Origin: an uncultured Candidatus Saccharibacteria bacterium
GTDB lineage: Bacteria; Patescibacteriota; Minisyncoccia; UBA6257; WO2-44-18
NCBI GenBank assembly: GCA_964373675.1
Contig: CAYJVO010000003.1
Coordinates: 1-51,505 of the forward strand
DNA: 51,505 bases
Reading direction: 5' to 3'
A model generated the notes under the pieces. It ran no database searches. It was not told where the DNA came from and was given only the letters and a program-made list of their open reading frames with translations. The translations under genes were made by a program, and so were the position numbers. Below, one piece after another: positions 14,831 through 51,505 of the stretch (position 1 is the first letter of the stretch; each line of letters begins with the position of its first letter).

Positions 14831-14853
14831 ACATTAAGTATAAACTATGACTA

Positions 14854-15200
14854 ATGACTATGACTAATGACCAAAAAATAAATAATTACGGCTTTAGATT
14901 CAAAGATTGGGATATTTATAATGATGCCCGTTATTTTAGGATTTTTGTGAACAATATTCTTAAAAAACTTCCTCCTGAAGAAAAATATATCCTTGTAAAT
15001 CAAACTAAACGAGCCTTAATTTCCATAATTCTAAATATTGCTGAGGACGCTAACAGAACTACGGATAAAGAATTGCTTGTATTGATTGCTGTTTAGACAA
15101 CCAATATATTACCGAAAAAGAATATGAGGAGATATTAGTTAAGGCAGAAAGTATAGCTAAAAGACTTCGCAAATTTTCTTCTCATTTATCATCGTCATAG
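14854..15200 (+). pseudogene. Four-helix-bundle protein (23S IVS protein/bAvd-like) with internal deletion and frameshift
   Basis: FKDWDIY...FPxEEKY-like...NQ.KRA..SI.LNIAE in one frame; after 15072 the family-like tail (ACIDCCLDNQYITEKEY...KRLRKF) continues in another frame to TAG at 15200. Confidence 0.75.
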
Positions 15201-15231
15201 TCATAGTCATTTGTTATTAGTCATAGTAAAT

Positions 15232-17007
15232 ATGTTTAAACTGGTATCCCAATTTGTTCCAAAAGGCGATCAGCCGCAGGCCATCGCCAAACTAACGGAC
15301 GGCATCCAAACTGGCTTAAAAGACCAAGTTCTTTTAGGCGTTACCGGCTCCGGCAAGACCTTTACTATGGCCTCGGTAATGGAGAAAATCGGCCTGCCGA
15401 CACTTGTTATCTCACCCAACAAAATCCTCGCCGCCCAGCTTTATCAAGAGTTCAAACAATTTTTTCCGAATAATGCCGTACACTATTTTGTTTCCTACTA
15501 TGACTACTACCAGCCAGAGGCCTACATTCCTCAAACCAACACCTATATCCAAAAAGACGCTCGCATCAACGAAGAAATAGACAAGCTCCGTCATGCCGCC
15601 ATCCAAAGTGTGCTTACCAGAAAAGACACGATCGTTGTCTCTTCCGTCTCCTGCATCTATGGCATCGGCGATCCCAATGAATACCAGCGCGCCCGCCTGG
15701 AACTCAAAACAGGACAATCTGTCGGCCAAAAAGATTTGGAACGCAGTTTAAGTTTTCTCCAATATGAACGCACTACCAAACGCCCGCTTCTCGGCCAATA
15801 CCAGCTTTTAAAAACCGCCCTGGAAATTCACCTTGTAACTGACGAACTTGTCCACATTGAATTTGATCGCGGCCGAAAAATAAAATCCGTTACGAAACTC
15901 GTTAACTCGTTAACTCATCAACTCATTAACTTAATCATCTATCCGGCCAAATTCTGGGTCACACCCCAAAACAAACTCAAACTGGCCCTCAAGAATATTA
16001 AAGCGGAAGCGGAAGAGCGCGTTGAAGAATTACAGTCCGCCAATAAATTTATGGAAGCCGACCGCCTAGAAAAACGCACTGGATTTGATTTGGAAATGCT
16101 CGCTAAAAAAGGTTATATTAATGGAATTGAAAATTATTCCCGTCATTTGAGTTTCCGTGAACCCGGCGAGCCGCCAATGACGCTTTTAGACTACTTCCCA
16201 AAGCCGTTTCTGCTTTTCATTGACGAATCCCATATTGCCATCCCCCAACTTCGCGCTATGGAAGCCGGCGACCGAATTAGAAAAGCCACCCTGATTGAAC
16301 ACGGCTTCCGACTGCCTTCGGCGCTGGACAATCGGCCGCTGAAATTTGAAGAATTCAATTACAAAATCGGCCAGAGAATTTATGTTTCCGCCACCCCCGG
16401 TCCCTATGAGTTGGAAAAGACGGGGCAAATCGTTGAACAACTGGTAAGACCAACTGGTATTTTGGATCCTAAAATTTCTATTCGGCCGGCCCAAAATCAG
16501 ATCAAAGACCTCTTGGAGGAAATCAAAAAACGGATCGCCTGCAATGAACGGGTTCTGGCGCTGACACTAACCAAAAGATCTGCCGAAGATTTGACGGAAT
16601 TTCTGCTTTCCCAAAAAATCCGGGCGCAATATCTTCATTCAGAGATCAAAACCCTAAAGCGCCCTGAAATTCTCAATGCTCTGCGGCGCGGCAAAATTGA
16701 TGTTGTCGTTGGCATCAATCTTTTACGCGAGGGATTGGATCTGCCAGAAGTAAGCTTGGTGGCAATTTTAGACGCCGACCGCGAAGGATTTTTACGCAAC
16801 TACCACGGCCTCATCCAAATGTCTGGCCGCGCCGCCCGCTCAGTTAACGGCAAAGTAATTCTATATGCTGATTTCATCACTGGATCAATAAAAAAAGCGA
16901 CTGTGGAAACTTTGCGGCGGCGCAAAATCCAAGAAAAATTCAACAAAAGCTACGGCATTATCCCGCAGACTATTCAAAAAGAAATTTCTATTGACTCTAT
17001 AAACTAA
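15232..17007 (+). CDS. uvrB: Excinuclease ABC subunit B (short, no C-terminal UVR domain)
   Basis: GDQPQAI, LLGVTGSGKTFT, YFVSYYDYYQPEAY, DESH, DNRPL, NLLREGLDLPEV; ATG 15232 preferred. Confidence 0.96.
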   Translation: MFKLVSQFVPKGDQPQAIAKLTDGIQTGLKDQVLLGVTGSGKTFTMASVMEKIGLPTLVISPNKILAAQLYQEFKQFFPNNAVHYFVSYYDYYQPEAYIPQTNTYIQKDARINEEIDKLRHAAIQSVLTRKDTIVVSSVSCIYGIGDPNEYQRARLELKTGQSVGQKDLERSLSFLQYERTTKRPLLGQYQLLKTALEIHLVTDELVHIEFDRGRKIKSVTKLVNSLTHQLINLIIYPAKFWVTPQNKLKLALKNIKAEAEERVEELQSANKFMEADRLEKRTGFDLEMLAKKGYINGIENYSRHLSFREPGEPPMTLLDYFPKPFLLFIDESHIAIPQLRAMEAGDRIRKATLIEHGFRLPSALDNRPLKFEEFNYKIGQRIYVSATPGPYELEKTGQIVEQLVRPTGILDPKISIRPAQNQIKDLLEEIKKRIACNERVLALTLTKRSAEDLTEFLLSQKIRAQYLHSEIKTLKRPEILNALRRGKIDVVVGINLLREGLDLPEVSLVAILDADREGFLRNYHGLIQMSGRAARSVNGKVILYADFITGSIKKATVETLRRRKIQEKFNKSYGIIPQTIQKEISIDSIN

Positions 17008-20886: not shown

Positions 20887-20913
20887 AGTTAAAAAATTGG
20901 GAACGGTCCCCCC

Positions 20914-21816
20914 TCATTTATTTAGACGCTCCAACAGACTCTTAAAACCCAATTTTTGGAAATATTCCGCCAATTTTTCTTTATTCAGCTCCCCCGCCGA
21001 AAGCGAAGCGAGATCGCTGACGGCGATTGGGGCGTCGCGGCGGATGAAGGCTAGTTTTTTGGACATTAAAGCGATTTCTTTTTGCCCTTCCAGTTTTTTG
21101 GAAATTTTTTCCGGAATGATGCCAATGCTCGCGAAAACTTCTTCAAGGTTGCCGTATTCTTTTAAAAGCGGCTGGGCGGTTTTAGGCCCCACTCCCTTGA
21201 TGCCCGGGATGTTGTCGGAAACATCCCCCACCATTCCTTTGTAGTCCGCAAGCTGATTCGGTTTGAGTCCATACTTTTCTTCTACTCCTTTTTCGTCATA
21301 AATTACGGTTTCGGAAAGGCCAGTTTTTACAATTTGAGCCAATACTTTTTCATCGCGCACGAGCTGCAGCAAATCATTATCGCCAGAGAGAATCACTACT
21401 TTTAAATCCGAGCCATCTTGTGGTGAGCCTGTCGAACCACCAAATTGCTCCGCAAGCGTCCCGATAATATCGTCGGCTTCAAAACCCGGCACGTCAAAAG
21501 TTTTGACACCAAATGCCTCAAAAACATCTCGGGCCTTAATAATTTGCGGCACTAAATCATCGGCAGTCGGCGGCCGGTGAATTTTGTATTCTTTGAAAAT
21601 TTCATCGCGAAAAGTCGGCTCGGGACGGTCAAACGCGGCGGCGGCATAATCAGGTTTTTGTTCACGAAAAACTTTCAACAAAATTCCGCAAAGTCCGTAA
21701 ATCGCCCCGATCGGCTGGCCATCCGGCGTCGTCAAAGGCGGAAGCGCGTGAAAAAACCGATGAATCAACGCATTGGCGTCAATAAGTAATAAAACGTTCG
21801 TTTTCTTTTCTGCCAT
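20914..21816 (-). CDS. 5'-3' exonuclease (stand-alone PolA N-terminal domain)
   Basis: LIDANALIHR, AFD, EADDIIG, SGDND, GD.SDNIPGIKGVGPKTA. Confidence 0.93.
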   Translation of the reverse strand: MAEKKTNVLLLIDANALIHRFFHALPPLTTPDGQPIGAIYGLCGILLKVFREQKPDYAAAAFDRPEPTFRDEIFKEYKIHRPPTADDLVPQIIKARDVFEAFGVKTFDVPGFEADDIIGTLAEQFGGSTGSPQDGSDLKVVILSGDNDLLQLVRDEKVLAQIVKTGLSETVIYDEKGVEEKYGLKPNQLADYKGMVGDVSDNIPGIKGVGPKTAQPLLKEYGNLEEVFASIGIIPEKISKKLEGQKEIALMSKKLAFIRRDAPIAVSDLASLSAGELNKEKLAEYFQKLGFKSLLERLNK

Positions 21817-22276
21817 GACTAAAGTTTACCCAAATTGTGTCTTTTGGTAAAAGTTTTTTTATTTTCTCTCCCCACTCAATTAGCACAATGTTAAATGGAT
21901 AATGTAAAATGGATTTAAAATTTAAAACGTCTAATTCCTTAATGTTGTGAATTCTGTATAAATCAACATGATAAAAGTTTTGTATTTTATCCCGATACTT
22001 GATACTTGATACTTGATGCTTGATGCTTGATGCTTGATACCTTCTAAATATAAGGAATGTCGGGCTGACTATCCGATGTTTTATACCAAGCGCTTTTGCA
22101 AACCCCTGAACAAAAGTGGTTTTACCGGCGCCAAGATCGCCGCTCAGGGCAACAACAGTGGCATATCGCATGCCTGCCTGTCCGGTAGGCAGGTCGCTTT
22201 TTACATTTAACAAACGCTTAGCAAGCTTGGCCGCTACCCGTTTGGTTTGCGCGGCGCTTCTTGAAACAAACCTCAT
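21779..22276 (-). CDS. tsaE: tRNA threonylcarbamoyladenosine biosynthesis ATPase TsaE
   Basis: GDLGAGKTT, SPTF, HVDLYR, IEW. Confidence 0.95.
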   Translation of the reverse strand: MRFVSRSAAQTKRVAAKLAKRLLNVKSDLPTGQAGMRYATVVALSGDLGAGKTTFVQGFAKALGIKHRIVSPTFLIFRRYQASSIKHQVSSIKYRDKIQNFYHVDLYRIHNIKELDVLNFKSILHYPFNIVLIEWGEKIKKLLPKDTIWVNFSHGRKENERFITY

Positions 22277-26209: not shown

Positions 26210-26764
26210 ATGGCCGGACATAGTCATTGGAAACAAATCAAAGCGCAAAAAGGCGCGGCGGATAAAAAGAAAAGCGCGGTTTTTTCAAAACTCTTAAATG
26301 CCATTTCCGTAGCGGCGCGACAAGAATCTAATCCGGCATTTAATCCGCGCCTGCGTTCAGCAATGGAAAAAGCCAAAGACAATAAAATTCCGCAAGAAAA
26401 CATAGAGCGAGCCATCGGCAAGGCATCGAAAAATAAAAACTTGGAAGAAATCATTATTGAAGCTTACGGTCCGGAAAAAACGGCCTTGATTATTGAAGCG
26501 ATAACTGACAATAAAAACCGGACTATTGCGGAAATCCGGCATCTTTTAGACGCAAATAAGGCAAAGATGGCCGATCCAGGAAGCGTTTTATGGGCTTTTG
26601 ATCCGCCAGCCCCGCAGACTACGAAGCAAACTAGTGGAGGCGGAGAGTGGAAAGCCAAATTTCCTCAGCAAATATCCGACGAAGGAAAAAGGAAGTTGCA
26701 AATAATTATAGAAAAACTGGAAGAACATAATGATGTGCAATGCGTTATAACAAATAGCCAATAG
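26210..26764 (+). CDS. yebC: YebC/PmpR family protein (short form)
   Basis: MAGHSHWKQIK, NPRLR, AK.NKIP..NIERAI, YGP, TDNKNRT..EIR, LE..NDVQ.V. Confidence 0.92.
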   Translation: MAGHSHWKQIKAQKGAADKKKSAVFSKLLNAISVAARQESNPAFNPRLRSAMEKAKDNKIPQENIERAIGKASKNKNLEEIIIEAYGPEKTALIIEAITDNKNRTIAEIRHLLDANKAKMADPGSVLWAFDPPAPQTTKQTSGGGEWKAKFPQQISDEGKRKLQIIIEKLEEHNDVQCVITNSQ

Positions 26765-26820
26765 CCACTAGGGTTTAGCTAATAGGGTTGAAACCCTAAA
26801 ACCTAAACCCTAAACTCTAA

Positions 26821-27291
26821 ATGAAAATATTAGGTATAGATCCCGGTACTTCCAGAATTGGTTATGGTTTAATTAAAGATGGCAGTGAATTGAAATTAAT
26901 AGATTGCGGAGTAATAGAAATTACCGAACCTGATAAAAAAATTCTTATTCTAGGCAAAAAATATGCCAAGCTTTTGAAAAAATTTCAGCCGGATTTAGTG
27001 GCAATAGAAAAACTTTTTTTTGCTAAAAATAAAAAAACGGCTCTGGGGGTTGCTCAATCCCGAGGAGTATTAATTTTAAAAAGTTTAGAAGCCAAAATCC
27101 CCATTGCGGAATATGGACCAATGGAAGTAAAGCTGGCCACTACTGGCTACGGATTATCGGACAAAAAAGCCGTGGCCACAATGGTAAAAATATTTTTAAA
27201 AGCCGACTCTTTAAAGGGGTATGATGATGCCAGCGATGCCTTAGCTATTGCAATAGCCGCCTCTTTCCATCAGAAACAAAACAAAATTTAA
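26821..27291 (+). CDS. ruvC: Crossover junction endodeoxyribonuclease RuvC
   Basis: ILGIDPG, AIEKLFF, RGV, VK.A.TGYG..DK, DDASDALAIA. Confidence 0.95.
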   Translation: MKILGIDPGTSRIGYGLIKDGSELKLIDCGVIEITEPDKKILILGKKYAKLLKKFQPDLVAIEKLFFAKNKKTALGVAQSRGVLILKSLEAKIPIAEYGPMEVKLATTGYGLSDKKAVATMVKIFLKADSLKGYDDASDALAIAIAASFHQKQNKI

Positions 27292-33017: not shown

Positions 33018-33338
33018 ATGTTGTCGAAGCAGCAAAGATTGCCGATTCAAAAATTTATAGGGAAAAGCGGCAAAATAGTTAAAAGCCGCTATTTTTTATT
33101 AAAAATTTTTGAAACCGGCAATGCCTTTTGCCGATTCGGCGTTATTATTAGCAGTAAAGTGGCAAAAAGAGCTGTTGATCGCAACAGATTAAAAAGGCAA
33201 ATATTTAATTTTTTCCGCATTGCCGGACACGCATTGCCGATTGCCGATTATTTGCTAATTGTTTCGGTAAATGCGGTAAAACTCGGCAAAGAGGAATTAA
33301 AAAACGAACTCTCCAAATTACTAACAACTAACAACTAA
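33018..33338 (+). CDS. rnpA: Ribonuclease P protein component
   Basis: RFGVIISSKVAKRAVDRNRLKR (RNR motif); canonical position after rpmH. Confidence 0.92.
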   Translation: MLSKQQRLPIQKFIGKSGKIVKSRYFLLKIFETGNAFCRFGVIISSKVAKRAVDRNRLKRQIFNFFRIAGHALPIADYLLIVSVNAVKLGKEELKNELSKLLTTNN

Positions 33339-33359
33339 CAACTAACAACTTTTGCTTTC

Positions 33360-37070: not shown

Positions 37071-38138
37071 TTATCGCGCCGTTTCTGCAGCTTGCAGTCT
37101 AGCTGAAGCAGTATTCGCGGCTTGTCTTGTTTGAATTACGGCTTGGTTAGCGGCATTTGCTTGTTGGAGTAATTCGCTATAAGCTCTATTGACCATAGCC
37201 AGGGTTTGAAAGAAGCTTGCTTCTTGGTTTTTGGGTGCATCTCCGTAGTCTTTTTCGGCTTGAATAACTTGAAGTTTTTGTATCTTTGCCCTTTGCGATA
37301 ATTCAAGGTACTCAAGCTCTTTGGCTTTAGCATTAAGTTCTGCCACTTCCCATTCGTTCCTTAATTTATTTATTTCTCCAAACTTTGCGCCTTGTTCTGA
37401 TAATTTTTGTTCGGCCTCCTGCTTTTCTGACAACAATGATCGCAATTTCTCCTCATATTCCTTTCTTTGTTGTTCCTCTTCTTGCCGTCTTTTTCCAATG
37501 ATTTCATTAAGGCTAAGCCTTTCTTCTAATTCTAAAACTTTTTTGGCAAGGGGTTTTATTTCCGGCAGTTTCAATTTAGTTAGTTGCGGATCAATGGTGC
37601 GAAGAATAATATAGGATCCAAAAAGCAGCGCCAAACCGTAAATTGCATTTAAAATCCGGTCTTTAGCGTCTTTCTGCAGAGAAGGATTGCCGGCAGAAAT
37701 CGTATATTGGATTGCGCCGAATATAATCATAGCCATTGCTACTAAACCGGCAGCACCCATGCCAAATTGAAAAACGGTTCTTACAAATTCTGCCGGACTG
37801 GAAATTGTAGTTTTTAGTCCTTCCGGCGTAGGAATGGGAATAATTAGTTTATAGCCCCCTGACTGTTGAGCCGACTGTTGTGCTCGGAGTTTATGTGCTC
37901 GGCGTTCAATAGTCTGTTTTTCTTCAGGAGTTACTTGACCTGCGCCCGTTTCTAAAAATTTTTCAAAATTCTCTACGAAAAATCCTTGCTCTTCCTGCAA
38001 TCTTTTTCTGGCTGCCGCGGTTTTTTCCGCATCTGTCTCTTGAGCAAAAACAATGCTAGAAAATAGAAAATAGAAAATAGAAAATAGGGTCAAAATGAAT
38101 GCCGTTCCAATTTCCAATTTCTTAATTTCTAGTTTCAT
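37071..38138 (-). CDS. Pilin-like (TrbC/VirB2-type hydrophobic hairpin) protein with coiled-coil tail
   Basis: Signal peptide; FGMGAAGLVAMAMIIFGAIQYTISAGNPS...AKDRI.NAI.GL.LL..SYIIL.TIDP.L. Confidence 0.7.
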   Translation of the reverse strand: MKLEIKKLEIGTAFILTLFSIFYFLFSSIVFAQETDAEKTAAARKRLQEEQGFFVENFEKFLETGAGQVTPEEKQTIERRAHKLRAQQSAQQSGGYKLIIPIPTPEGLKTTISSPAEFVRTVFQFGMGAAGLVAMAMIIFGAIQYTISAGNPSLQKDAKDRILNAIYGLALLFGSYIILRTIDPQLTKLKLPEIKPLAKKVLELEERLSLNEIIGKRRQEEEQQRKEYEEKLRSLLSEKQEAEQKLSEQGAKFGEINKLRNEWEVAELNAKAKELEYLELSQRAKIQKLQVIQAEKDYGDAPKNQEASFFQTLAMVNRAYSELLQQANAANQAVIQTRQAANTASARLQAAETAR

Positions 38139-38144
38139 GTTTTT

Positions 38145-38837
38145 TTATTGGCTTAAAAAATTTAATGAATTGCTGGTGGATTCCAGAACTTGTTTTAAAT
38201 TTTTGACTAAAACGCTGATATTTATATTTATTCCCGCAGGCAGAGACGCCAATTCTAAAATATTTGGATTTTCCGGTGTGCCTTCCGGCCGCTGGCCGTT
38301 AACTGTCCATTCAAAATTAAGCTGGTTTAAGCTGGCAGTGTTGAAAAAATACGGCAAAGCTTTAAAGATATTATCGGCTAAAGGCGTTATTACCACTTCT
38401 GGTTCGGCAATTGGTATAACAATAGTTTCTTCTAAATTGGCGCCTCGGTAGCGGCGGACTTCTATTCTTATTGTTTTGTCTTGTCGTTCAAAACGTAGTG
38501 GAATATAAGTCAAAGTTTTTAATCCCAAACCAGATTTTTGGAGCTGATTATTTATAAACCAGCGAACCTCATTCCCGGCTAAATTAACTATTCTGCTATT
38601 TTCCAGCAATTCAAAAGCGATTTCTATTGGTGAAGTCGGTGAGGGCAGAGCTTTGCCTGGGTAATCCGGCGGAACATAAGAATTGGCTTTCCAGGAAACC
38701 ATAAACTCTGGCGCTTGTTGGCCTCTAGAGGACAGAGGATAGAGGATAGAGAAAAGCAAAGAAAATAAAACAAGCGTAATCGCAAAATTCGTGAAAATAC
38801 TGCCCTCCCTCCTCTTTTCCCTATGCTCTTTTATCAT
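38145..38837 (-). CDS. Hypothetical exported Ig-like protein
   Basis: TM/signal helix, SWKANSYVPPDYPGKALP, W.ING/VNG beta strands. Confidence 0.65.
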   Translation of the reverse strand: MIKEHREKRREGSIFTNFAITLVLFSLLFSILYPLSSRGQQAPEFMVSWKANSYVPPDYPGKALPSPTSPIEIAFELLENSRIVNLAGNEVRWFINNQLQKSGLGLKTLTYIPLRFERQDKTIRIEVRRYRGANLEETIVIPIAEPEVVITPLADNIFKALPYFFNTASLNQLNFEWTVNGQRPEGTPENPNILELASLPAGININISVLVKNLKQVLESTSNSLNFLSQ

Positions 38838-41655: not shown

Positions 41656-42129
41656 TTAGCGGTAGTCTATTTTTCTTGCGAATCTTTTTTGGCTGAACGC
41701 TTGTTTATACACATCCAGCCTTTCTTTTTGCGCCATCTGAGTTGGGATCCGCAGAGTGGTGGTGATTTTCAGCCAAATTCTTTTAAGCGGAGAAACAATT
41801 TCCAGACGAGGGGCTTCCGGTATTTTAATTTCCGGAACAGCAGCGATTTCTTCAGATTTTTTCCATAAATAAAGTTTTGGTTGAGTCGCGTATTTTAAAG
41901 CCGAAGCGATTATCACCGGCATTGGTCGGCCATTATACTTTAAAAATGCCAAAATTGCCGCTGTCGTCCCGAGGATTGCAGTGACGATGAACCAAAACCA
42001 GAGTTTCAGGACAAAAAACAGCAAGAAACTGATCAGTCCGGCCGCCGCCAAATAAATAAATTGTTTGAGCGTCAGCGGCCCGACGATTTTATCCTCCATT
42101 TCTATAAATTGTGGAACTTGAAATTGCAT
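41656..42129 (-). CDS. PrgI family protein
   Basis: QFQVPQFIE.EDKIVGPLTLKQF, two TM helices, YNGRP. Confidence 0.85.
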   Translation of the reverse strand: MQFQVPQFIEMEDKIVGPLTLKQFIYLAAAGLISFLLFFVLKLWFWFIVTAILGTTAAILAFLKYNGRPMPVIIASALKYATQPKLYLWKKSEEIAAVPEIKIPEAPRLEIVSPLKRIWLKITTTLRIPTQMAQKERLDVYKQAFSQKRFARKIDYR

Positions 42130-42133
42130 ATCA

Positions 42134-42639
42134 GTTGATGAGTTAAAGAGTTGATGAGTTGATGAGGTTGACTTTGTTTTCCGGAAAATTTTCTATGAAT
42201 TTTATGTAGCCAAAAATTGCTTTTCTAAGGTTAATATACTGGCCCGAAACTTTTTTTGCTGTTTCTTGGTCAATAAACCCTTTATCGGAACATCGTAGGA
42301 TATTGGTTCTTGTTTCTTCTAATTCCGCTATCGCAATATCCCTTAATATATGTATTTTATCGCGTTTATGCTGTTTATAATAAGCCTCAGCAATATTATT
42401 AGTTATTGAAGAAGACGATCTATTTAATTGATCAACGCTTCTAAACCGCTCGTCTTTGGGAAAAGCTTTAGTGAGCTCGCGAACTTCCAGTTCTAGATCT
42501 TTAGCCATATTGTAAATTTTTAAGTTTTCTATTCCTGTAGCCATTGAAATTATTCCTCATTAACTGTAGCGAAGCCAAGTCTGACTTAGCGAAGCCAAGT
42601 CTGACTTGGCGAAGCGTAACTCATTAACTCTTCAACTCA
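42134..42639. mobile_element. Putative cassette: 8-mer array - four-helix-bundle gene - CTCATTAACTGTAGCG end
   Basis: Both ends recur without the gene at 49053-49137 and 49581-49665. Confidence 0.55.
42143..42544 (-). CDS. Four-helix-bundle protein (23S IVS protein/bAvd-like)
   Basis: ENLKIY, FPKDERF...DQL.RSS.SI..NIAE, IA..EL.E. Confidence 0.88.
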   Translation of the reverse strand: MATGIENLKIYNMAKDLELEVRELTKAFPKDERFRSVDQLNRSSSSITNNIAEAYYKQHKRDKIHILRDIAIAELEETRTNILRCSDKGFIDQETAKKVSGQYINLRKAIFGYIKFIENFPENKVNLINSSTL

Positions 42640-43226
42640 GTCTTCATATTGCTATAATGAACCTTTTTTGGTTCATCATCGTGGGTCGGAATAGGGCCGA
42701 TACTCGGAACCTTAAAAGCTTGGGGCGCTTGTCCCGCCAACGGCGAGAGTTTTGGCGGGGACGGAGCCTCTGTTTGTTCCGGTATAGTTAAAATAAATCC
42801 TGGTTTGGAAATAAAGAATTTATATAAAGAATAGCGATTGGATTTTAGCCAATTAATTTTTTCTTCAGCTGTTCCCCCGGGTATAGCTTTTGAGAATTGT
42901 TTTTGTAGAAATTCTAATTCTGTTGCAGGTAGTGATTCATAAACAGCTTTCATAGCTTCTTCGTTAAGAGAATCAATTACCGCTTTCATAATCACCGGCT
43001 TAGCTGATTTTTCCCATTCCTCCGAGGTTAAATTACCTCTAAAAGCTGGAGCGCCTTCTATGATGAGTATCCATTCAATATCTTCCCAATCTTCAGGTTT
43101 AAAATTAGTTAATATCCGTTGAAGATTGCTTTGGGTCAAAGAATAGTCTTTTTTTTGTAAAGCTTCCCAAACCGTTGGTTCCCAGATCGGTATTGAATTT
43201 ATAATTATTTTTTCTACTGCTGGCAT
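42624..43226 (-). CDS. Hypothetical protein
   Basis: 200-aa ORF with Pro-rich linker; last codons and stop lie inside the repeat end. Confidence 0.65.
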   Translation of the reverse strand: MPAVEKIIINSIPIWEPTVWEALQKKDYSLTQSNLQRILTNFKPEDWEDIEWILIIEGAPAFRGNLTSEEWEKSAKPVIMKAVIDSLNEEAMKAVYESLPATELEFLQKQFSKAIPGGTAEEKINWLKSNRYSLYKFFISKPGFILTIPEQTEAPSPPKLSPLAGQAPQAFKVPSIGPIPTHDDEPKKVHYSNMKTELKS

Positions 43227-43290: not shown

Positions 43291-44820
43291 CTAATTCTTT
43301 CGTCTTTTTTTCTTCGGCATCGTTTCATGGCGTCCGAAGCCGAGCTTTAGTCCCTCTAAGAGTTCGTTAGCAACAGCGGGTTCCATTTTAATTAAGTCAA
43401 GTCTCTTATTTCTTGCTAATTCAGATAGAATAAGCATTTTCATTGGTTTTGGAGCAAATTTGTATCTTCTAGCTATTTCTTCCAAAGATAATCCTTTGAT
43501 TGATTGTTCGTAAGGTTTCAATATCTGTTTTTCAGCCGTCATGCGAATATTAGCTAGTCCAGCGCCAGCTGTTCTCAAAAGCGGCACTTTCTGCATACCC
43601 GCAACTATGTTGCGACCGATTTGAGTTCTTAGTGGCCAAGAGCCGGCCCGCAAACCGATTCTTCCAGTTTGACCAATGGCGAAGTTTTTCACGGCTCCGG
43701 TTTGACCAATGGCGAAGTTTTTCACGGCTCCGGCCCATCTTAACCCCATATCTGCTCCGCTGATGCTCATAGAATTGGCAGCCATTAGTCCGCCGACCAT
43801 TAAACCAGCCGAAATAATAATTTGAAGAAAAAGTCCTAGGGCATCTTGAATTAAAAGCCCATCATTAACAAAACGCGCAATTTGACTTGAGGCCGTATGC
43901 TGGTTAATCGATTCGCCAATTTTATCAACGGTCACTAAAGCAAGATAGATGAAGAAGGTTGCGGCTGGCAAAAAGAAATTCCACTGTAAGAATTTTGACC
44001 ACCAATTCCTCCAAAGGTGGCTAAGATTTGGGAAAATCCACATCAGCCAAGCCAGTGGCATTAAAAGAAGAAGAATGGTGAGCATGATATAGCGGATCAA
44101 AAGCATAAATCCCGTGACGAACATTACTATAGCCGTAATGGCTCCAAAAATAATCATGAAAATGGGGGCTAAAACTAATGAAATTAATTTAAAAACTACT
44201 CCCTCAACATCAGAAATATCATTCCTGACCGATAACAATTTTTGGGGATTAAAAGCGGCCATAATATTGTTGGTGAAAAGCGCTGGATCACCACCGGCTC
44301 CTTGATTGACAAAGACGGCTGCCAGCGCATTATTGAAATCTACAATTGGTGCGGCAATCACTAAACTAAAATTTACTAATAAAGCCGCAACAATGAGTTT
44401 CCACAGAGTTTTTTTAATGGCATAACTTTCAATTCTTAAAATAGTTGCAAAGGCAATAATGATAATTGCTAACACGAAACCGAGATTGGTAATGTCTAAG
44501 ACGACACCAAACCCGTTTTTTAAAAGATGATTGGTATCCAGATTAAAGACTTGGGCGTTGAAAGCGAGCATGAAATTAATAAGATCCGTCCCTACGCTAA
44601 TTAAGTACTGAATGGCGATTGCCGGAATGAATGTAACATACCGCAGTAATAAGGATATGCCTTCCTCTACGCAGGCATACAAGTCACCAGGACCGCAATT
44701 TACGAAAGCCGGCTGCGTTAATAACTCGCTGACATTTTGAGCAGAAGCGAAGTTCGCCGCAAAAAGAAAAACGGCAATCAGTGAAATTAATAAAATTTTA
44801 TTTACGGAATGTTTCTGCAT
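43291..44820 (-). CDS. VirB6/TrbL-like polytopic membrane protein
   Basis: D..NL.F....IIIAF.TIL, L..LI.AALLVNFS, R.I.L..L..L.PLA......P, W..WW..F..W.FF.P; possible frameshift near the 3' end. Confidence 0.7.
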   Translation of the reverse strand: MQKHSVNKILLISLIAVFLFAANFASAQNVSELLTQPAFVNCGPGDLYACVEEGISLLLRYVTFIPAIAIQYLISVGTDLINFMLAFNAQVFNLDTNHLLKNGFGVVLDITNLGFVLAIIIIAFATILRIESYAIKKTLWKLIVAALLVNFSLVIAAPIVDFNNALAAVFVNQGAGGDPALFTNNIMAAFNPQKLLSVRNDISDVEGVVFKLISLVLAPIFMIIFGAITAIVMFVTGFMLLIRYIMLTILLLLMPLAWLMWIFPNLSHLWRNWWSKFLQWNFFLPAATFFIYLALVTVDKIGESINQHTASSQIARFVNDGLLIQDALGLFLQIIISAGLMVGGLMAANSMSISGADMGLRWAGAVKNFAIGQTGAVKNFAIGQTGRIGLRAGSWPLRTQIGRNIVAGMQKVPLLRTAGAGLANIRMTAEKQILKPYEQSIKGLSLEEIARRYKFAPKPMKMLILSELARNKRLDLIKMEPAVANELLEGLKLGFGRHETMPKKKRRKN

Positions 44821-47428: not shown

Positions 47429-48292
47429 CTATAAGCTGAAAAAGTGAGAAAGAGTGGATAACTTTTCTAAACTTAAATCCTGCGGTCTTGTATTGACCGG
47501 AAGACCATTTTTGGCAAGAATTTCAGCAATTTTTGACTTATCCACAGATAATCCCCCCTTCGCTAAAGCTACGGAGGGCAGGCCACTAGTCAAATTATTA
47601 AGAAGGGTCTTTCTCGGCTGTTTAAAAATAATTTTTATCAACTTATAGTAGTTTTTCTCCGCTTCCCTAGTGGTTAATGGCTGAACCCTAGTGGCTAGTT
47701 TTATAATTGCCGATTCCACTTTCGGCGGCGGTGAGAAATTAGACGGCTTTAAATAAGATATTATTTTTGGCTCGGCCCAAAACTGCACCGCCGCCGCCAG
47801 CAAATTCATCCCACACATAGGACATTTCCTACGTGTGGGATTCATTTTCGGCGGATGAGCGCAAATTCGTTCCGCGACCTCCCTTTGAATAGTCAGCACA
47901 GTCAGCGCCGGCTTATTTTCCAATTCGCTCAAAATCCGCAAAAGCTTGCCGGTGATGTAATAGGGAATGTTGCCCACTACTTTGAAGAATCCGGAATATA
48001 GAATATAGAATTCAGGGTTGGCTAGTACTTTTAGCGCATCGCCGTGAATAATTTTGGCGTTTCCTAAATTTTGTATCCTAAATTCTAAATCCTCGGCTAA
48101 ACGAGGGTCTTTCTCTATACCAATGACTTTGCAACCGATTTTCGCGCATTGTTCCGCAAGCGGTATTGTTAATGCTCCCTTTCCTGGACCGATTTCCACA
48201 ATCGTCTCGCCGGCGTTTAATTCCAAAGCGGCGATTATTTTTTGAATCGCTGAACGTTTAATCAAAAAATGCTGTCCTAATTTGCGTGACAT
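47429..48292 (-). CDS. rsmA: 16S rRNA adenine dimethyltransferase RsmA/KsgA
   Basis: LGQHFL, VEIGPGKG.LT, IEKD, GDAL, VGNIPYYIT, Q.EVAERI, F.PPPKVESA, F.QPRKTL.NNL. Confidence 0.96.
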   Translation of the reverse strand: MSRKLGQHFLIKRSAIQKIIAALELNAGETIVEIGPGKGALTIPLAEQCAKIGCKVIGIEKDPRLAEDLEFRIQNLGNAKIIHGDALKVLANPEFYILYSGFFKVVGNIPYYITGKLLRILSELENKPALTVLTIQREVAERICAHPPKMNPTRRKCPMCGMNLLAAAVQFWAEPKIISYLKPSNFSPPPKVESAIIKLATRVQPLTTREAEKNYYKLIKIIFKQPRKTLLNNLTSGLPSVALAKGGLSVDKSKIAEILAKNGLPVNTRPQDLSLEKLSTLSHFFSL

Positions 48293-48749: not shown

Positions 48750-51505
48750 ATTTCAGATTCTTCAATGTAAATATCCTCCTCGGATTCTTGATATTTAGGC
48801 CTGCCGATTTGTTTTACCTCAGTTAATTCCGGTGGAATTTCGCCGAGGAAACGCGATGGCAAGTTATAAAAACTTAAAAACAGATTTTTTCGGGCGCGGG
48901 TCATAGCGACATACATCAGCCGGCGTTCTTCTTCCGTGTCGTCCAGCGATCCGTAAGACATTTGGTGCGGCAAAGTGCCTTCGTTGCAGCCGGCAACAAA
49001 AACCGTTTCAAATTCCAAGCCCTTGGCGAGGTGGATGGTCATTAGGCTAATAGTTGATGAGTTGATGAGTTGATGAGTTGATGAGTTTTTTTCGGTCCGA
49101 AACTCATTAACTGTAGCGTCAGCGTGACTCTTCAACTGATTAGCGGGTTGATCGGCTGATTGAAGAAGCGAAACGCGTTCTAAAAATTCGCCCAAGTTTT
49201 CAAAGCCGGAGGCAAAGACGATTAATTCGTTGATGTTTTCCTTGCGTTCCTGGTAGTTTTTATAGTTTTTTTCCAAATAATCAAAGTAATCGGCATTATT
49301 TAAAAACCAACTAATCAATTCCAGGATTTTGAGGTTTTTTCCGAGGCGTGGCAGTTCTTCCAAAAGCAGTTCGGTCACTGATTTGGTGAAATTTTTAACA
49401 ATTCTCTCGCGGCTGACCTCATCTTTAGGGTTGGCGGCAATCCGTAAAGCGGCAACAATGTCTTTTATTTCTTTTCTTTCATAGAATTTCAACCCGCCGA
49501 AAATTTTATAAGGAATGTTAGCTATAATTAACGTTTGTTCAATCGCGCGGGACTGGGCGTTAGTGCGATAGAGTATCGCGGTTGATGAGTTAATGAGTTG
49601 AGGAGTTGAGGAGTTTTCTCGGCCGTCGAACTCATTAACTGTAGCGTTAGCGCGACTCATTAACTGTCTAATTTTGTCCGCGATAAAATCCGCTTCTTGT
49701 TCCGCATCTTCGCAGGCGGCGACTTGAATCAAATCCCCGCTGGGATTTTTCGTCCACAACTCTTTAGGTTTTTGAAATTTGTTGTTTTTTATTACCGTTG
49801 AAGCGGCATTAATGATATTGGAAGTGGAGCGATAGTTTTGTTCCAGCAGTACTACTTTGGCGTTCGGCCAGTCTTTTTCAAAGTTTAAGAAATTACGGAA
49901 ATCCGAACCGCGGAATCCGTATATTGAATTATGGACAACAAAGTCATTAGCAACGTAATTGTGGACATTTTTTACGTCTAAGTCATAAACATAACCGTCG
50001 TACTGTTCCACCTCAACCTTTTTTACCGTTTTTTCTATTACTTTCTTGCCGTTTTTGACAGCGATTTGCATAGTAGGCCGAACATGAGATGCCGGCTGAA
50101 AAAAAAGCCTTTTTCCTTTTGTCAGGCAAGCGCTTCTAACAATTTCTACTTCCGAACTTGCTGTCATCAAACGTTCAGCAATTTTTTCAATTTCGCTGTA
50201 ATTAAGACGAGCGATTTCCAGTCGCCAATCTGTTATTTTGCCTTTTCTCGTAGTGAATCCCAGCTTCTCAATCGCTGTTTTTAGTGCTGAATCTTTTGTA
50301 TTGACGCTGATTCTGCTCATTCCCCACGGATGCGCTAAACTTTTTCTGCGATCATCAAATAACGTCAAACGAATGCGCAATCGTCGGGAAGAATGGCGTA
50401 TTGTTCCTTTTGGCAGCCAATGGGGATAGCTAAAATACAACAATTCGTCTTTCATTAATTTCCGGACACGGCTTTTGGTGTCAATGGCATCAAATAATTT
50501 GTCTACATGGCTTTGGGGGATTAACATATCGCGGTTGTTAGTGTCAAAAACGAGCGTTGGCAAGCCGTAATTAAATGCATAATAGTATTCGTAATATTCA
50601 GCTTCCGCTCGAGAGAAACATACTTTCAGAATCCACATTTTATCGGCCCTTTCTTGATTAGTTCTAACCATTAGTCCCAGCTGACGTTTGTCTCTGCTCC
50701 AGCGGGAGCCTTTGGTAAGGCCAATTCTAAACCCCTTATCTTTTCTGTACATTAAGTAAACGTAGAAAATATCATCTAATAGCTGCGTTTTTGTAAAAAT
50801 AATATGATTGGGTGTTAACTTAAGAGTTTTTTTGTCCGTAGTTGTTATTTTTATCAATGCGCCGCGATATCGAAATTTTTTTATTTTATCTATATTAGCA
50901 AAGCAGATTTTTTCGTCGCCTGCAGCCGCAATCACTCTGTTTTTAAGAGAAATATTTTTAATCATTTTTAATCCGCCATCGGTTGCAATTTGCGTTTCGG
51001 GCAGCACGCACTGGGCATCATCGCCAACAACCGTTAAGTTTTGAGACCCCTTTGATAAAAGTTTTATCAGTTGATATTGGGCGGGATTAACATCTTGGTA
51101 TTCGTCCACCAAGATATAACGGAAGCGTTTTTGATATTTTTCCAGAACTTTCGGATGATTTTTAAATATCCAAACCACTTTCTCTATAAGATCGTCAAAG
51201 TCCAAGGCGTTGTTTTTAACGAGCGCCGCCTCATATTTTTTAAAAATGTCCAGCGCGGTTTTGTCCAGGTATTCTTCCGGATCAATGAGTTCGTTTTTAA
51301 CATTTCCGATTTTGGCTTTTGCGGTCAGTGGGTTGTAGCGGTCTTTGGAAATATCCATAGTCTTCATTATTTTTTTCATAAGACTCAACGAATCGTCTTC
51401 ATCAAAAATAGTGAAGGAGGCAGTTCGGCCGACCGACGTCGCTTCTTGTTTTAAAATCCGAGCGCCGAGAGAGTGGAAAGTGCCAATAAACGGGGTTGAT
51501 GGGTT
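48746..51505 (-). CDS. pcrA: ATP-dependent DNA helicase PcrA/UvrD, intein-containing; 5' end beyond window
   Basis: GTFHS, DFDDL, VDEYQD, VGDDAQ|intein|SIYGFRG, LEQNYRS, LYRTNAQSR, MTIHLAKGLEF, EERRLMYVAMTRA; frame stays open to the window end. Confidence 0.95.
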   Translation of the reverse strand, partial: NPSTPFIGTFHSLGARILKQEATSVGRTASFTIFDEDDSLSLMKKIMKTMDISKDRYNPLTAKAKIGNVKNELIDPEEYLDKTALDIFKKYEAALVKNNALDFDDLIEKVVWIFKNHPKVLEKYQKRFRYILVDEYQDVNPAQYQLIKLLSKGSQNLTVVGDDAQCVLPETQIATDGGLKMIKNISLKNRVIAAAGDEKICFANIDKIKKFRYRGALIKITTTDKKTLKLTPNHIIFTKTQLLDDIFYVYLMYRKDKGFRIGLTKGSRWSRDKRQLGLMVRTNQERADKMWILKVCFSRAEAEYYEYYYAFNYGLPTLVFDTNNRDMLIPQSHVDKLFDAIDTKSRVRKLMKDELLYFSYPHWLPKGTIRHSSRRLRIRLTLFDDRRKSLAHPWGMSRISVNTKDSALKTAIEKLGFTTRKGKITDWRLEIARLNYSEIEKIAERLMTASSEVEIVRSACLTKGKRLFFQPASHVRPTMQIAVKNGKKVIEKTVKKVEVEQYDGYVYDLDVKNVHNYVANDFVVHNSIYGFRGSDFRNFLNFEKDWPNAKVVLLEQNYRSTSNIINAASTVIKNNKFQKPKELWTKNPSGDLIQVAACEDAEQEADFIADKIRQLMSRANATVNEFDGRENSSTPQLINSSTAILYRTNAQSRAIEQTLIIANIPYKIFGGLKFYERKEIKDIVAALRIAANPKDEVSRERIVKNFTKSVTELLLEELPRLGKNLKILELISWFLNNADYFDYLEKNYKNYQERKENINELIVFASGFENLGEFLERVSLLQSADQPANQLKSHADATVNEFRTEKNSSTHQLINSSTISLMTIHLAKGLEFETVFVAGCNEGTLPHQMSYGSLDDTEEERRLMYVAMTRARKNLFLSFYNLPSRFLGEIPPELTEVKQIGRPKYQESEEDIYIEESEI
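49053..49137. repeat. 85-nt element in frame in pcrA, copy A
   Basis: (GTTGATGA)x4 + 18 nt + CTCATTAACTGTAGCGTCAGCGTGACTCTTCAACT. Confidence 0.85.
49581..49665. repeat. 85-nt element in frame in pcrA, copy B
   Basis: GTTGATGA GTTAATGA GTTGAGGA GTTGAGGA + 18 nt + CTCATTAACTGTAGCGTTAGCGCGACTCATTAACT. Confidence 0.85.
49928..51010 (-). mobile_element. Intein (361 aa) in PcrA/UvrD motif III
   Basis: DAQ|CVLPETQI (block A), LTPNH (block B), VYDLDV (block F), VVHN|S (block G); removing it restores GDDAQSIYGFRG. Confidence 0.95.

What the first reader, a model, noticed from the sequence alone, without database searches (positions are those of the whole stretch)
42134..42639. Four-helix-bundle gene sits inside an element whose gene-less versions occur elsewhere in the window
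Seen: left end is four 8-mers (GTTGATGA GTTAAAGA GTTGATGA GTTGATGA, 42134-42165). Right end is CTCATTAACTGTAGCG...AGCG..ACTCATTAACTCTTCAACT (42556-42639), roughly inverted relative to the left array. The same two ends, 18 nt apart and with no gene, occur twice in pcrA. The cargo gene's stop and the upstream gene's stop both lie in the repeats. The cassette interrupts the VirB-like cluster just upstream of prgI. Inference: this is a small mobile or excisable unit (full form versus empty form) with no transposase. Its only protein is of the fold that, as Avd, partners reverse transcriptases in DGRs, which hints at an RNA-linked or trans-mobilised mechanism.
Basis: partly seen in the sequence, partly recalled or inferred. 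Interest (0 to 1): 0.8.

Follow-up and report, generated by a model that had tools for sequence, protein, structure and literature searches.

The report
Mobile four-helix-bundle cassette with repeat arms
A small gene of the long-mysterious "23S rRNA intervening-sequence protein" family sits between inverted arms made of tandem 8-base repeats, gene-less copies of the same arms lie in frame inside a helicase gene, and comparison with relatives shows such cassettes come and go like a mobile element that carries no known transposase.

Summary
A 133-aa four-helix-bundle (4HB) gene (PF05635, 23S_rRNA_IVP; 42143-42544, minus strand) lies between inverted arms built of GTTGATGA-type octamers. Two gene-less, in-frame copies of the same ends sit in pcrA. 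A one-armed array sits in uvrB. A second, frameshifted 4HB cassette with different arms (ATGACTA units) lies at 14844-15230.

Comparison with relatives supports evolutionary mobility. Of 80 related VirB4-type clusters, 68 have no 4HB gene. The other 12 carry 15 genes of several subfamilies at three different junctions. The closest syntenic relative has no 4HB gene at the prgI junction. One relative has an orthologous cassette with the same arm type. Members of the same 4HB subfamily sit in ribosomal-protein operons elsewhere.

The pattern is general. Strong inverted arms flank 23 of 38 distinct 4HB genes (Patescibacteria, Cyanobacteria, Bacteroidota, Gemmatimonadota, viral contigs) against 8 of 746 control ORFs. 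The arms are built of 7-8-nt tandem units.

There is no reverse transcriptase, transposase or integrase in the window. The arms show no G·U bias, so an RNA-based mechanism is not supported. This is best read as an IVS-type selfish cassette with MITE-like derivatives. The mobility mechanism is unknown. I found no published description of the repeat arms.

The parts
42133..42166 (.). Arm next to the 3' end of the cargo gene: four tandem octamers (A)GTTGATGA / GTTAAAGA. It holds the 4HB stop codon (42143-42145) and ends 4 nt from the prgI start codon (42127-42129).
42143..42544 (-). Cargo gene: a 133-aa four-helix-bundle protein of the 23S_rRNA_IVP family (PF05635). The last ~10 residues (KVNLINSSTL) are encoded by the arm and are predicted disordered.
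   Evidence: Pfam 89 bits vs cut-off 33.8; AlphaFold pLDDT 90.2, residues 124-133 below 50; Foldseek 2GSC, 2RLD, Avd; N-terminus MATG... conserved in homologs
42549..42566 (-). Inner 5' arm (CTCATTAAC on the + strand) plus TGTA. On the gene strand it reads TACAGTTAATGAGGAATAA and supplies a GAGG Shine-Dalgarno-like motif 10 nt before the ATG.
   Evidence: TACAGTT + octamer conserved in relative L002
42567..42615 (.). G+C-rich internal hairpin made of a 20-nt unit (TAGCGAAGCCAAGTCTGACT) repeated 2.5 times. The gene-less copies have only TAGCG-YY-AGCG here, and relative L002 has a different small hairpin (CTCCCCTTTCGGGGA).
   Evidence: (D1, I4)
42617..42640 (.). Outer 5' arm (TAACTCATTAACTCTTCAACT). 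It pairs with the octamer array and contains the stop codon of the upstream 200-aa ORF (42624-42626).
   Evidence: (I1-I3)
49052..49140 (.). Gene-less copy B: four octamers, an 18-nt loop, then CTCATTAACTGTAGCG TC AGCG TG ACTCTTCAACT. It lies in frame in pcrA (peptide QLKSHADATVNEFRTEKNSSTHQLINSST) just before the ISLMTIHLAKGLEF motif.
49581..49665 (.). Gene-less copy A: the same architecture, in frame in pcrA (QLMSRANATVNEFDGRENSSTPQLINSST) just before AILYRTNAQS.
15896..15931 (.). One-armed array of the same octamer family (AACTCRTT x4.5 on the + strand), in frame in uvrB (peptide LVNSLTHQLINL).
14844..15230 (+). Second 4HB cassette, frameshifted (a pseudogene), between ruvA (minus strand) and the uvrB start (15232). 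Its arms have a different unit: ATGACTA(A) x3.7 (14844-14871) and TCATAG x6 (15189-15227). They are inverted, 38 nt long and 76% complementary.
42624..43226 (-). Upstream host ORF (200 aa, no Pfam family). Its last codons (ELKS*) are supplied by the cassette arm. The closest relative reads ...KKVHYSNMKTILKDKI* instead.
41656..42129 (-). Downstream host gene prgI (PF12666).

Best explanation
The region is a small selfish cassette of the same kind as the ORF-bearing intervening sequences (IVS) of 23S rRNA. Here it is lodged between two protein genes of a T4SS-like operon in a Patescibacteria (CPR) chromosome.

SHOWN:
- The unit is one four-helix-bundle (IVP/S23p family) gene bracketed by inverted arms made of 3-5 tandem 7-8-nt units.
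- Gene and arms are gained and lost together across relatives.
- Different subfamilies, each with its own arm unit, occupy different junctions of the same operon.
- Gene-less hairpin derivatives with the same ends occur in the same genome, including in-frame copies in variable loops of essential genes.

INFERRED:
- The gene-less copies are MITE-like derivatives or trans-mobilised partners of the full cassette.
- The arms act at the DNA level as terminal or subterminal repeats. They are probably arrays of binding sites for the cassette's own protein, whose solved homologs are crystallised with five chains per entry. Strand cleavage and joining would be done by host enzymes or by an activity of the 4HB protein not yet recognised.
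- Within tight operons the promoterless gene is expressed by read-through from the host operon.
- When transcribed, the long stem may be cut by RNase III, as in rRNA IVS. That would explain why such insertions are tolerated, but it is not tested here.
For: Family and fold:
- Pfam PF05635, E 2.9e-25; pLDDT 90 four-helix model; TM 0.80/0.90 to 2GSC.

Anatomy and folding:
- Arms and gene-less copies.
- The ends of the full element pair (-125.8 kcal/mol, z -4.2).
- The gene-less copies fold well on both strands (z -3.4 to -5.8).

Gain and loss:
- Among 80 related VirB4 loci, 12 carry 15 4HB genes: 7 upstream of prgI, 2 between prgI and the TraC-like gene, 4 between the TraC-like gene and virB4, and 2 elsewhere.
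- On the VirB4 tree the window's sisters L004 and L005 lack the gene. The orthologous cassette (L008, 62% aa identity, same arm type) sits in another clade, next to L007. L007 has a different subfamily and different arms at the same site.
- The closest syntenic relative, L229, has no 4HB gene at the junction.

Same subfamily elsewhere:
- It is found between rplA and a dCMP deaminase gene (L201) and upstream of rplK (L207). The arms there also have an 8-nt period.

Full and empty pairs in other genomes:
- L043 and L071.

Generality:
- Inverted-arm score >=13 in 23/38 distinct 4HB genes vs 8/746 control ORFs (Fisher P 1e-27). Tandem 6-9-nt periodicity in a flank in 32/38 vs 142/746.
- This includes plasmids of Cyanobacteria, Bacteroidota and Gemmatimonadota and viral contigs.

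Arm and protein relatedness:
- Arm 6-mer similarity rises only among close protein relatives (Jaccard 0.02 baseline, 0.04 at 45-60% identity, 0.13 at 60-80%).

DNA-level arms:
- G·U 22 vs A·C 23 among transition mismatches.

Orientation:
- All 13 cassettes inside the T4SS-like operons are co-oriented with the operon.

No mobility enzyme:
- No RT, transposase or integrase in the window.
Against: - No movement has been seen. Mobility is inferred from a patchy distribution, which multiple losses could partly explain.
- No target-site duplication is visible at any of the three two-armed copies.
- The 4HB protein has no known catalytic or DNA-binding motif. Binding to its arms is pure inference.
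- The overall protein/arm correlation is not significant (Spearman 0.03, permutation p 0.33). Only the close-relative bins show it.
- Fifteen of the 38 4HB genes lack a strong inverted pair by my ungapped score. One (L085) has direct rather than inverted arrays.
- Outside tight operons the orientation bias is weak (22/34 and 21/33).
- Tandem 7-mers are common in these genomes generally (19% of control flanks), so arrays could be pre-existing landing sites rather than part of the element.
- The source genome is not available, so the copy number of this family is unknown.
- Both independent assemblies show only the full allele.
Confidence: 0.68

Rival explanations
1. This is a domesticated RNA-level module and not a mobile element. 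The arms form an mRNA stem (an RNase III or other processing site) that uncouples or tunes expression of the flanking cistrons. The 4HB protein is a resident regulator of that stem. Gene-less hairpins are independent regulatory or structural stems.
For: - Strong predicted folding of the full unit and of the small copies.
- Precedent of RNase III-cleaved IVS stems around homologous ORFs (PMC4990558).
- Gene, arms and position are conserved between the window and L008 despite 62% protein identity.
- The cassettes are co-oriented within operons.
Against: - No G·U over A·C excess in the arms (22 vs 23).
- For the pcrA copies the antisense strand folds much better than the mRNA strand (-41.7 vs -27.0 kcal/mol).
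- The gene is absent from 68 of 80 related operons, including the closest ones.
- The same subfamily appears in unrelated operons.
- A cleaved stem inside the pcrA coding sequence would destroy the mRNA, yet the frame is kept open.
Confidence: 0.15
2. Retro-mobility. The cassette RNA is copied by a reverse transcriptase encoded elsewhere, with the 4HB protein acting like Avd. The cDNA then integrates, and the tandem units arise by reiterative copying of a short template.
For: - Structural similarity to Avd and to the Avd subunit of the DGR ribonucleoprotein (4DWL and 8UB7, TM 0.70/0.83-0.85).
- Tandem 7-8-nt arrays are what reiterative templated synthesis would make (inference).
- DGRs are common in CPR bacteria (my own knowledge, not tested here).
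Against: - No RT in the 51.5-kb window or among the called genes next to 4HB genes in relatives.
- No template/variable repeat pair.
- Only 8% sequence identity to Avd; the protein is much closer to the non-DGR members 2GSC and 2RLD.
- The arms show no strand asymmetry.
Confidence: 0.07
3. The tandem arrays are pre-existing, slippage-generated features of these genomes that mark permissive hot spots. 4HB genes, and other hairpins, are captured there by homologous or illegitimate recombination between arrays. The arms then belong to the target, not to the element.
For: - Tandem 7-mers are frequent in control flanks (19%) and inside many genes of the window.
- The two pcrA sites and the prgI junction are hit by different repeat families in different genomes.
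- 'Empty' PcrA relatives often still read NSST (AACTCATCAACT-like) at site A.
Against: - Close 4HB relatives in different genomes and loci share arm units (L007/L011 GCCACTA; L043/L041/L071/L021 AAAATNA; L084/L086).
- All four members of the window's subfamily have an 8-nt period, while most others have 7.
- Inverted pairs are about 55 times more frequent around 4HB genes than around control ORFs of the same genomes.
Confidence: 0.1

Closest known systems
ORF-bearing intervening sequences (IVS) of 23S rRNA (Leptospira, Coxiella burnetii, Xanthomonas-type S23p/IVP)
   Same: - Homologous cargo protein (PF05635; 2GSC is the best structural match).
- The ORF sits in the loop of a long stem formed by terminal inverted repeats.
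- Sporadic distribution.
- Gene-less short forms exist in other bacteria.
- Long suspected to be a mobile element whose ORF aids mobility (PMC4990558).
- IVP ORFs also occur in CPR rRNA insertions (PMC11270868).
   Different: - Here the host is a protein-coding operon, and for the gene-less copies a coding sequence read in frame, not rRNA. The only Rfam match in the window is one tRNA.
- The arms are tandem 8-mers.
- RNase III excision is untested and would be harmful inside pcrA.
MITEs and palindromic elements inserted in frame in genes (Rickettsia palindromic elements, Coxiella QMITEs), and REPINs
   Same: - Short, multi-copy hairpin elements with inverted ends.
- They tolerate insertion in frame in variable loops of conserved proteins.
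- A longer gene-bearing relative is present in the same genome.
- Reviews: PMC10969869, PMC5896051, PMC3116915 (titles and abstracts only).
   Different: - The full-length partner encodes no transposase or RAYT, only a 4HB protein.
- No target-site duplication is visible.
- The ends are arrays of tandem units rather than a single terminal inverted repeat.
Cyanobacterial STRR (short tandemly repeated repetitive heptamer) arrays
   Same: Dispersed arrays of tandem 7-nt units of unknown origin. In cyanobacterial plasmids such arrays flank 4HB genes (Stanieria, Geminocystis, Pseudanabaena, Nostoc).
   Different: - As far as I could find, STRRs have been described as repeats and not as ends of a gene cassette.
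- The window's family has an 8-nt period.
Avd, the accessory protein of diversity-generating retroelements
   Same: Same fold (TM 0.70/0.85). Avd is part of a nucleic-acid-handling complex (8UB7).
   Different: Only 8% identity. No RT, template repeat or variable repeat nearby.
23S_rRNA_IVP genes embedded in cas operons (Zhang et al. 2013, PMC3936711)
   Same: Single IVP genes wedged between adjacent operon genes (cmr3|cmr2, cas6|cas4). I saw the same in Pseudanabaena (cas6|4HB|cas4, with AAAAGCT/AAAAGCC arrays on both sides).
   Different: That paper read the association as functional (with nucleases). The flanking repeats and a selfish-cassette reading were not discussed in the passage I read.

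Membership tests
23S_rRNA_IVP / four helix bundle protein family (PF05635, TIGR02436) | Profile HMM score above the curated cut-off | tested here: met
   89 bits vs 33.8, residues 6-110 on profile positions 1-104 of 106
23S_rRNA_IVP / four helix bundle protein family (PF05635, TIGR02436) | Up-down four-helix bundle resembling XCC0516 (2GSC) and BT_0352 (2RLD) | tested here: met
   pLDDT 90.2, helices 9-25, 30-56, 60-87 and 93-119; TM 0.80/0.90 and rmsd 1.2 A to 2GSC
23S_rRNA_IVP / four helix bundle protein family (PF05635, TIGR02436) | Conserved Q..R...S...N..E motif (GxxRxxxSxxxNxxE of Lin 2006 / Zhang 2013) | tested here: met
   Q39, R42, S46, N50, E53 and E76 are invariant across 10 diverse sequences including the window's; motif quoted in PMC3936711
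23S rRNA intervening sequence (IVS) | Inserted in a hairpin loop (helix 9, 25 or 45) of the 23S rRNA gene | tested here: not met
   Rfam's only match in the window is one tRNA. The cassette lies between a 200-aa ORF and prgI.
23S rRNA intervening sequence (IVS) | Terminal inverted repeats that close the element into a stem | tested here: met
   22-nt arms, 91% complementary. In the MFE fold of the 536-nt unit the ends pair with each other.
23S rRNA intervening sequence (IVS) | Excised from the transcript by RNase III without religation | not testable with these tools
   Needs RNA end mapping or an in vitro RNase III assay
MITE (miniature inverted-repeat transposable element), for the gene-less copies | Terminal inverted repeats, small size, no coding capacity of its own | tested here: met
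   85-89-nt hairpins
MITE (miniature inverted-repeat transposable element), for the gene-less copies | Target-site duplication flanking each copy | tested here: not met
   No direct repeat borders any of the three two-armed copies (reading)
MITE (miniature inverted-repeat transposable element), for the gene-less copies | Shares its ends with an autonomous element that encodes a transposase | tested here: not met
   The ends are shared with the 4HB cassette, whose only ORF is not a known transposase. There is no transposase in the window.
MITE (miniature inverted-repeat transposable element), for the gene-less copies | Many dispersed copies in one genome | tested here: inconclusive
   Three two-armed copies and one one-armed copy in 51.5 kb. 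The source genome is not in the collections.
Diversity-generating retroelement (Avd-RT system) | Reverse transcriptase gene adjacent to the Avd-like gene | tested here: not met
   No RT domain in any sizeable ORF of the window
Diversity-generating retroelement (Avd-RT system) | Template repeat / variable repeat pair (~100 bp, adenine-specific differences) | tested here: not met
   Only short tandem and inverted repeats around the gene
Integron gene cassette | attC site with RYYYAAC / GTTRRRY core sites, and an IntI integrase with an attI array | tested here: not met
   The window's octamers do not fit the cores. Arms of other subfamilies (GCCACTA, AAAATCA, CTTCTGCC) share no core. No integrase is present. 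The cassettes are single and dispersed, not in arrays.

The most novel reading that the evidence does not exclude
PF05635 four-helix-bundle proteins are the specificity factor of a previously unrecognised, pan-bacterial class of mobile cassette. The multimeric protein reads the tandem 7-8-nt units of its own arms. The cassettes and their gene-less derivatives would then be the source of the dispersed heptamer arrays (cyanobacterial STRRs, CPR arrays), of the rRNA IVSs, and of many in-frame loop insertions in essential proteins. They would spread without any classical transposase, integrase or reverse transcriptase of their own.
Probability: 0.3. Interest if true: 0.9.

Novelty: new variant of a known kind. 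Interest (0 to 1): 0.74.

Why it matters
The IVS protein family has had no known function since IVSs were found around 1990. It is annotated thousands of times as 'four helix bundle protein' or 'S23 ribosomal protein'.

Three consequences follow if these genes are generally the cargo of cassettes with inverted tandem-repeat arms:

1. Their scattered positions inside cas, restriction/BREX-like, ribosomal and secretion operons reflect selfish insertion, not functional partnership.
2. Heptamer arrays such as the cyanobacterial STRRs get a candidate origin.
3. The unusually variable loops of conserved CPR proteins (here PcrA, and probably UvrB, TsaE and Fpg) are partly explained by in-frame hairpin elements.

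The idea also gives simple experiments. One is to test whether the protein binds its own arms. Another is to run a mobilisation trap in culturable hosts that carry the same architecture.

Tried and rejected
1. Exact look-up of the 133-aa protein found nothing. The 121-aa version found one 2.1-kb Logan contig identical to the window. Look-ups of prgI and the upstream ORF found only that contig and one other short contig, both with the full form and both broken inside the 20-nt duplication. So there is no evidence for an empty allele.

2. A profile of the in-frame insert peptide, searched against 5.8 billion proteins, returned only small ORFs over long (ACTCATCA)n arrays in unrelated organisms. 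None had a 4HB gene nearby.

3. A scan of metagenome contigs for CTCATTAACTGTAGCG gave 107 single matches.

4. Rfam found no family at the element.

5. The promoter/terminator scan gave one weak promoter-like site (TTGGCT-18-AATAAT, 9/12) just upstream of the 4HB ATG and no terminator at the arms. This is not above background.

6. The integron-cassette idea was rejected (no core sites, no integrase).

7. The G·U vs A·C test for an RNA stem showed no bias.

8. A global protein-identity vs arm-similarity correlation was not significant. Only the close pairs share arms.

9. A ten-sequence 4HB alignment was too diverse for the search for related loci. A four-sequence one worked.

10. Eight literature searches found nothing on repeat arms around IVP genes. 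The library holds only open-access papers, so prior description cannot be excluded.
Full report
**1. What is in the window**

The window is a 41% G+C chromosomal stretch of a Patescibacteria (CPR, Paceibacteria-like) bacterium. It holds dnaA, dnaN, rnpA, yidC, ruvABC, uvrB, pcrA and a T4SS-like cluster. The best VirB4 relatives are CPR MAGs at no more than 78% identity.

- 42134-42165 is GTTGATGA GTTAAAGA GTTGATGA GTTGATGA.
- 42556-42639 is CTCATTAACTGTAGCG, then a 20-nt unit repeated 2.5 times, then AGCG TA ACTCATTAACTCTTCAACT.
- The outer right arm pairs with the left array (22 nt, 91% complementary).
- Between the ends, on the minus strand, lies a 133-aa ORF (42143-42544). It matches PF05635 (23S rRNA-intervening sequence protein) at 89 bits against a cut-off of 33.8.
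- Its stop codon lies in the second octamer.
- The stop of the upstream 200-aa ORF lies in the outer right arm.
- The prgI start codon is 4 nt from the array.

Chance does not explain the motifs. The two-octamer pattern gave 12 matches against 0.02 expected. The 16-mer occurs three times exactly.

**2. The gene-less copies**

The same two ends, 18 nt apart, occur at 49052-49140 and 49581-49665. Both copies lie inside the UvrD/PcrA-type helicase gene, which also carries an intein and runs off the window end.

Both are in frame. They add the peptides ...ATVNEF...NSST(H/P)QLINSST immediately before the conserved AILYRTNAQS and xxLMTIHLAKGLEF strands. Relative to Geobacillus PcrA, site A is 16 residues longer.

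Only one orientation and one frame of this element is free of stop codons. GTTGATGA arrays contain TGA in every frame. That explains why all copies have ACUCAUCA on the mRNA strand.

A one-armed array of the same family sits in frame in uvrB (15896-15931).

**3. A second cassette**

A phmmer scan of the six-frame translation found a second 4HB remnant at 14851-15093. The C-terminal helix continues in another frame, so the gene is frameshifted. It sits between ruvA and the uvrB start.

It too is bracketed by inverted tandem arrays, but with a different unit: ATGACTA(A) x3.7 on the left and TCATAG x6 on the right, 38 nt at 76% complementarity. So the architecture recurs in the window with unrelated arm sequences.

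**4. Relatives: the gene is not fixed**

I fetched 80 loci around VirB4 homologs from GTDB genomes and scanned them with an iteratively built 4HB profile.

| Position of the 4HB gene | Genes |
|---|---|
| Upstream of prgI | 7 |
| Between prgI and the TraC-like gene | 2 |
| Between the TraC-like gene and virB4 | 4 |
| Elsewhere | 2 |
| Total (in 12 loci) | 15 |

- Sixty-eight loci have no 4HB gene.
- On a VirB4 neighbour-joining tree, the window's sister lineages (L004, L005) lack the gene.
- One more distant genome (L002 = L008) has an orthologous cassette at the same junction. It shows 62% protein identity, the same GTTAATGAGTT-type arms, the same TACAGTT joint and a different small G+C hairpin.
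- The sister of L008 (L007) has, at the same junction, a 4HB gene of another subfamily with GCCACTA arms.
- The closest syntenic relative found through PcrA (L229; pcrA-rsmA-...-prgI-virB4 in the same order) reads ...KKVHYSNMKTILKDKI*. The window reads ...KKVHYSNMKTELKS*. L229 then has an unrelated ~90-nt hairpin and then prgI, with no 4HB gene.

This places the cassette's boundary right after ...NMKT, at the start of the arm.

Members of the window's own 4HB subfamily (54-58% identity) sit in quite different places in other CPR genomes. One is between rplA and a dCMP deaminase gene, another is upstream of rplK. Their arms again have an 8-nt period (TATGAGTT/AACTCATA; CTAGTTNG/AACTANNN).

**5. 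Full and empty pairs elsewhere**

- In L043 the same AAAATCA-type hairpin occurs without a gene at three or more intergenic junctions of the operon. It occurs once with a 4HB gene in its loop.
- L071 shows the same pairing.
- The two PcrA sites are hot spots in many relatives. Each genome carries its own repeat family at both sites: the window has NSSTHQLINSST; L229/P0121 has a GTCATTGCGAGCGCTAGCGAAGCAATCTC hairpin at both sites; P0122 and P0126 have others. Many relatives have none, and P0153 has the window's family.

**6. Generality**

Every 4HB gene found in the VirB4 loci is flanked by short tandem units. The unit differs between elements.

The same holds for 4HB genes on plasmids of Stanieria, Geminocystis and Pseudanabaena. 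In Pseudanabaena the gene lies between cas6 and cas4, and the arrays are direct rather than inverted. Nostoc PCC 7120 has an array on the 3' side only. Gemmatirosa and Riemerella also fit. Most 4HB genes on IMG/VR contigs fit as well.

| Measure | 4HB genes | Control ORFs of the CPR loci | Fisher P |
|---|---|---|---|
| Ungapped inverted-repeat score >=13 between 130-nt flanks | 23/38 | 8/746 | 1e-27 |
| 6-9-nt periodicity in at least one flank | 32/38 | 142/746 | 9e-17 |

Several of the eight control 'hits' are genes next to gene-less hairpins, or are the window's own pseudogene.

Arm sequences are shared only among fairly close protein relatives. The arms therefore evolve fast but stay complementary within each element.

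**7. What the arms are**

Among 45 transition mismatches in the arm alignments, 22 would be G·U on the gene strand and 23 would be A·C.

For the pcrA copies the antisense strand folds far better than the mRNA strand (-41.7 and -39.4 vs -27.0 and -24.2 kcal/mol).

A stem selected as RNA should favour G·U. The even split points to DNA-level inverted repeats: terminal or subterminal repeats, or arms regenerated from one another.

Arrays of 3-5 copies of a short unit in inverted orientation at both ends resemble the multiple protein-binding sites at transposon ends. The only protein the cassette encodes is the 4HB protein. Its solved homologs 2GSC and 2RLD each have five chains per entry, and XCC0516 is described as a homopentamer in PMC4990558.

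Avd, which has the same fold (TM 0.70/0.85), is part of a nucleic-acid-handling complex.

I therefore propose, as inference, that the 4HB protein recognises its own repeat units. The chemistry of movement would come from host functions or from an unrecognised activity of the invariant Q/R/S/N/E/E constellation.

**8. The protein**

AlphaFold gives a confident four-helix bundle (pLDDT 90.2). The last ten residues, encoded by the arm, are disordered.

The best structural matches are XCC0516 (2GSC) and BT_0352 (2RLD), followed by Avd (4DWL, 8UB7) at 8% identity.

The long N-terminus (MATG...) is conserved in homologs, so the start is at 42544. A GAGG motif supplied by the inner arm lies 10 nt upstream.

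**9. What is not there**

No reverse transcriptase, transposase, integrase or rRNA lies in the window. No template/variable repeat pair is present. No target-site duplication is visible. No empty allele appears in the two other assemblies of this population.

**10. Comparison with known systems and novelty**

The closest known thing is the ORF-bearing 23S rRNA IVS. It has a homologous ORF inside a stem of terminal inverted repeats and a sporadic distribution, and it was long suspected to be mobile (PMC4990558). It fails the defining feature of an IVS, because it is not in rRNA.

The gene-less copies behave like in-frame MITEs or Rickettsia palindromic elements, but they lack target-site duplications and a transposase-bearing parent.

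IVP genes inside cas operons have been reported and read as functional partners (PMC3936711). The flanking arrays seen here suggest selfish insertion instead.

I found no paper that describes tandem-repeat arms around IVP genes or links them to heptamer arrays. The search covers open-access literature only.

I rate this a new variant of a known kind, with a substantial chance that it marks a distinct class of mobile cassette.

**11. Limits**

- Mobility is inferred from distribution, not observed.
- The sample of 38 genes was collected opportunistically.
- The inverted-repeat score is crude: it is ungapped and ambiguous about repeat register.
- The mechanism is hypothesis.

Noticed in passing
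window 21994-22040 (tsaE), 18663-18697 (fpg), 33320-33350 (end of rnpA), 38057-38087 and 38726-38751 (T4SS pilin-like and neighbouring ORFs), 8387-8416, 10008-10033, 48062-48093 (rsmA): There are many one-armed tandem 7-mer arrays (GATACTT x6.7, ACCTGAC x5, ACTAACA x4.4, TAGAAAA x4.4 and others). Several lie in frame inside conserved genes. TsaE and Fpg are about 30 residues longer than their Pfam profiles at those points.
   Followed up: partly
window 26753-26821: A gene-less hairpin with TAGGGTT / AACCCTA heptamer arms lies directly upstream of the ruvC start. A lone TTTAGGG x4.6 array lies at 7085-7116.
   Followed up: no
window 11444-11893 (+) and 20379-20864 (-): Two paralogous Trp_repressor-like (PF01371) genes are each flanked on both sides by the same perfect palindrome: CCACTATCGCATGCGATAGTGG around the first and CGTTTTGACGCGTCAAAACG around the second. 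This is a different 'gene between matching hairpins' architecture.
   Followed up: partly
window 18996-21816: DNA polymerase I is split. The 5'-3' exonuclease ORF (20914-21816) and the polymerase-domain ORF (18996-20333) are separated by the second Trp_repressor-like gene with its palindromes.
   Followed up: no
window ~49928-50944 (pcrA residues 149-487): pcrA carries an intein (PF14890 Intein_splicing and a Hint domain) in addition to the two hairpin inserts. The gene runs off the window end at 51505.
   Followed up: partly
window 43663-43733: A 33-nt tandem duplication (2.2 copies, 97% matching) lies inside the 509-aa TrbL-like membrane protein gene and repeats the peptide GAVKNFAIGQT.
   Followed up: no
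L209, L213, L215 (IMG/VR contigs), 4HB genes at about 660-1060: 4HB cassettes sit inside the coding sequence of a large PglX / type IIG methyltransferase-like gene, at the same point (...GRYSLD..G | cassette | ..DNVIP..DDI...RPIYWLF) in three diverged contigs. The host gene is split there. Two of the three have CAGTGRT/ACCACTA-type arms.
   Followed up: partly
L229 2180-2245 and 2681-2764; PcrA homologs P0121-P0180: The two PcrA loop sites are insertion hot spots across CPR relatives. Each genome has its own repeat family, and it is present at both sites. This suggests saturation of the few permissive sites, or replacement of one hairpin by another.
   Followed up: partly
L005 3600-3728 and L229 9086-9175: At the orf200|prgI junction the closest relatives carry a different ~90-nt hairpin (GGGATGCTCATGTTTGTGGCTAAA...TTTAGACAAACATGGCA) in place of the 4HB cassette. 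The junction is a repeated target for unrelated hairpin elements.
   Followed up: partly
L085 (Pseudanabaena galeata plasmid pPg_01, 46268-46627): A 4HB gene lies between cas6 and cas4. It is flanked by very long direct (not inverted) heptamer arrays: AAAAGCT x17 upstream and AAAAGCC x10 or more downstream.
   Followed up: no
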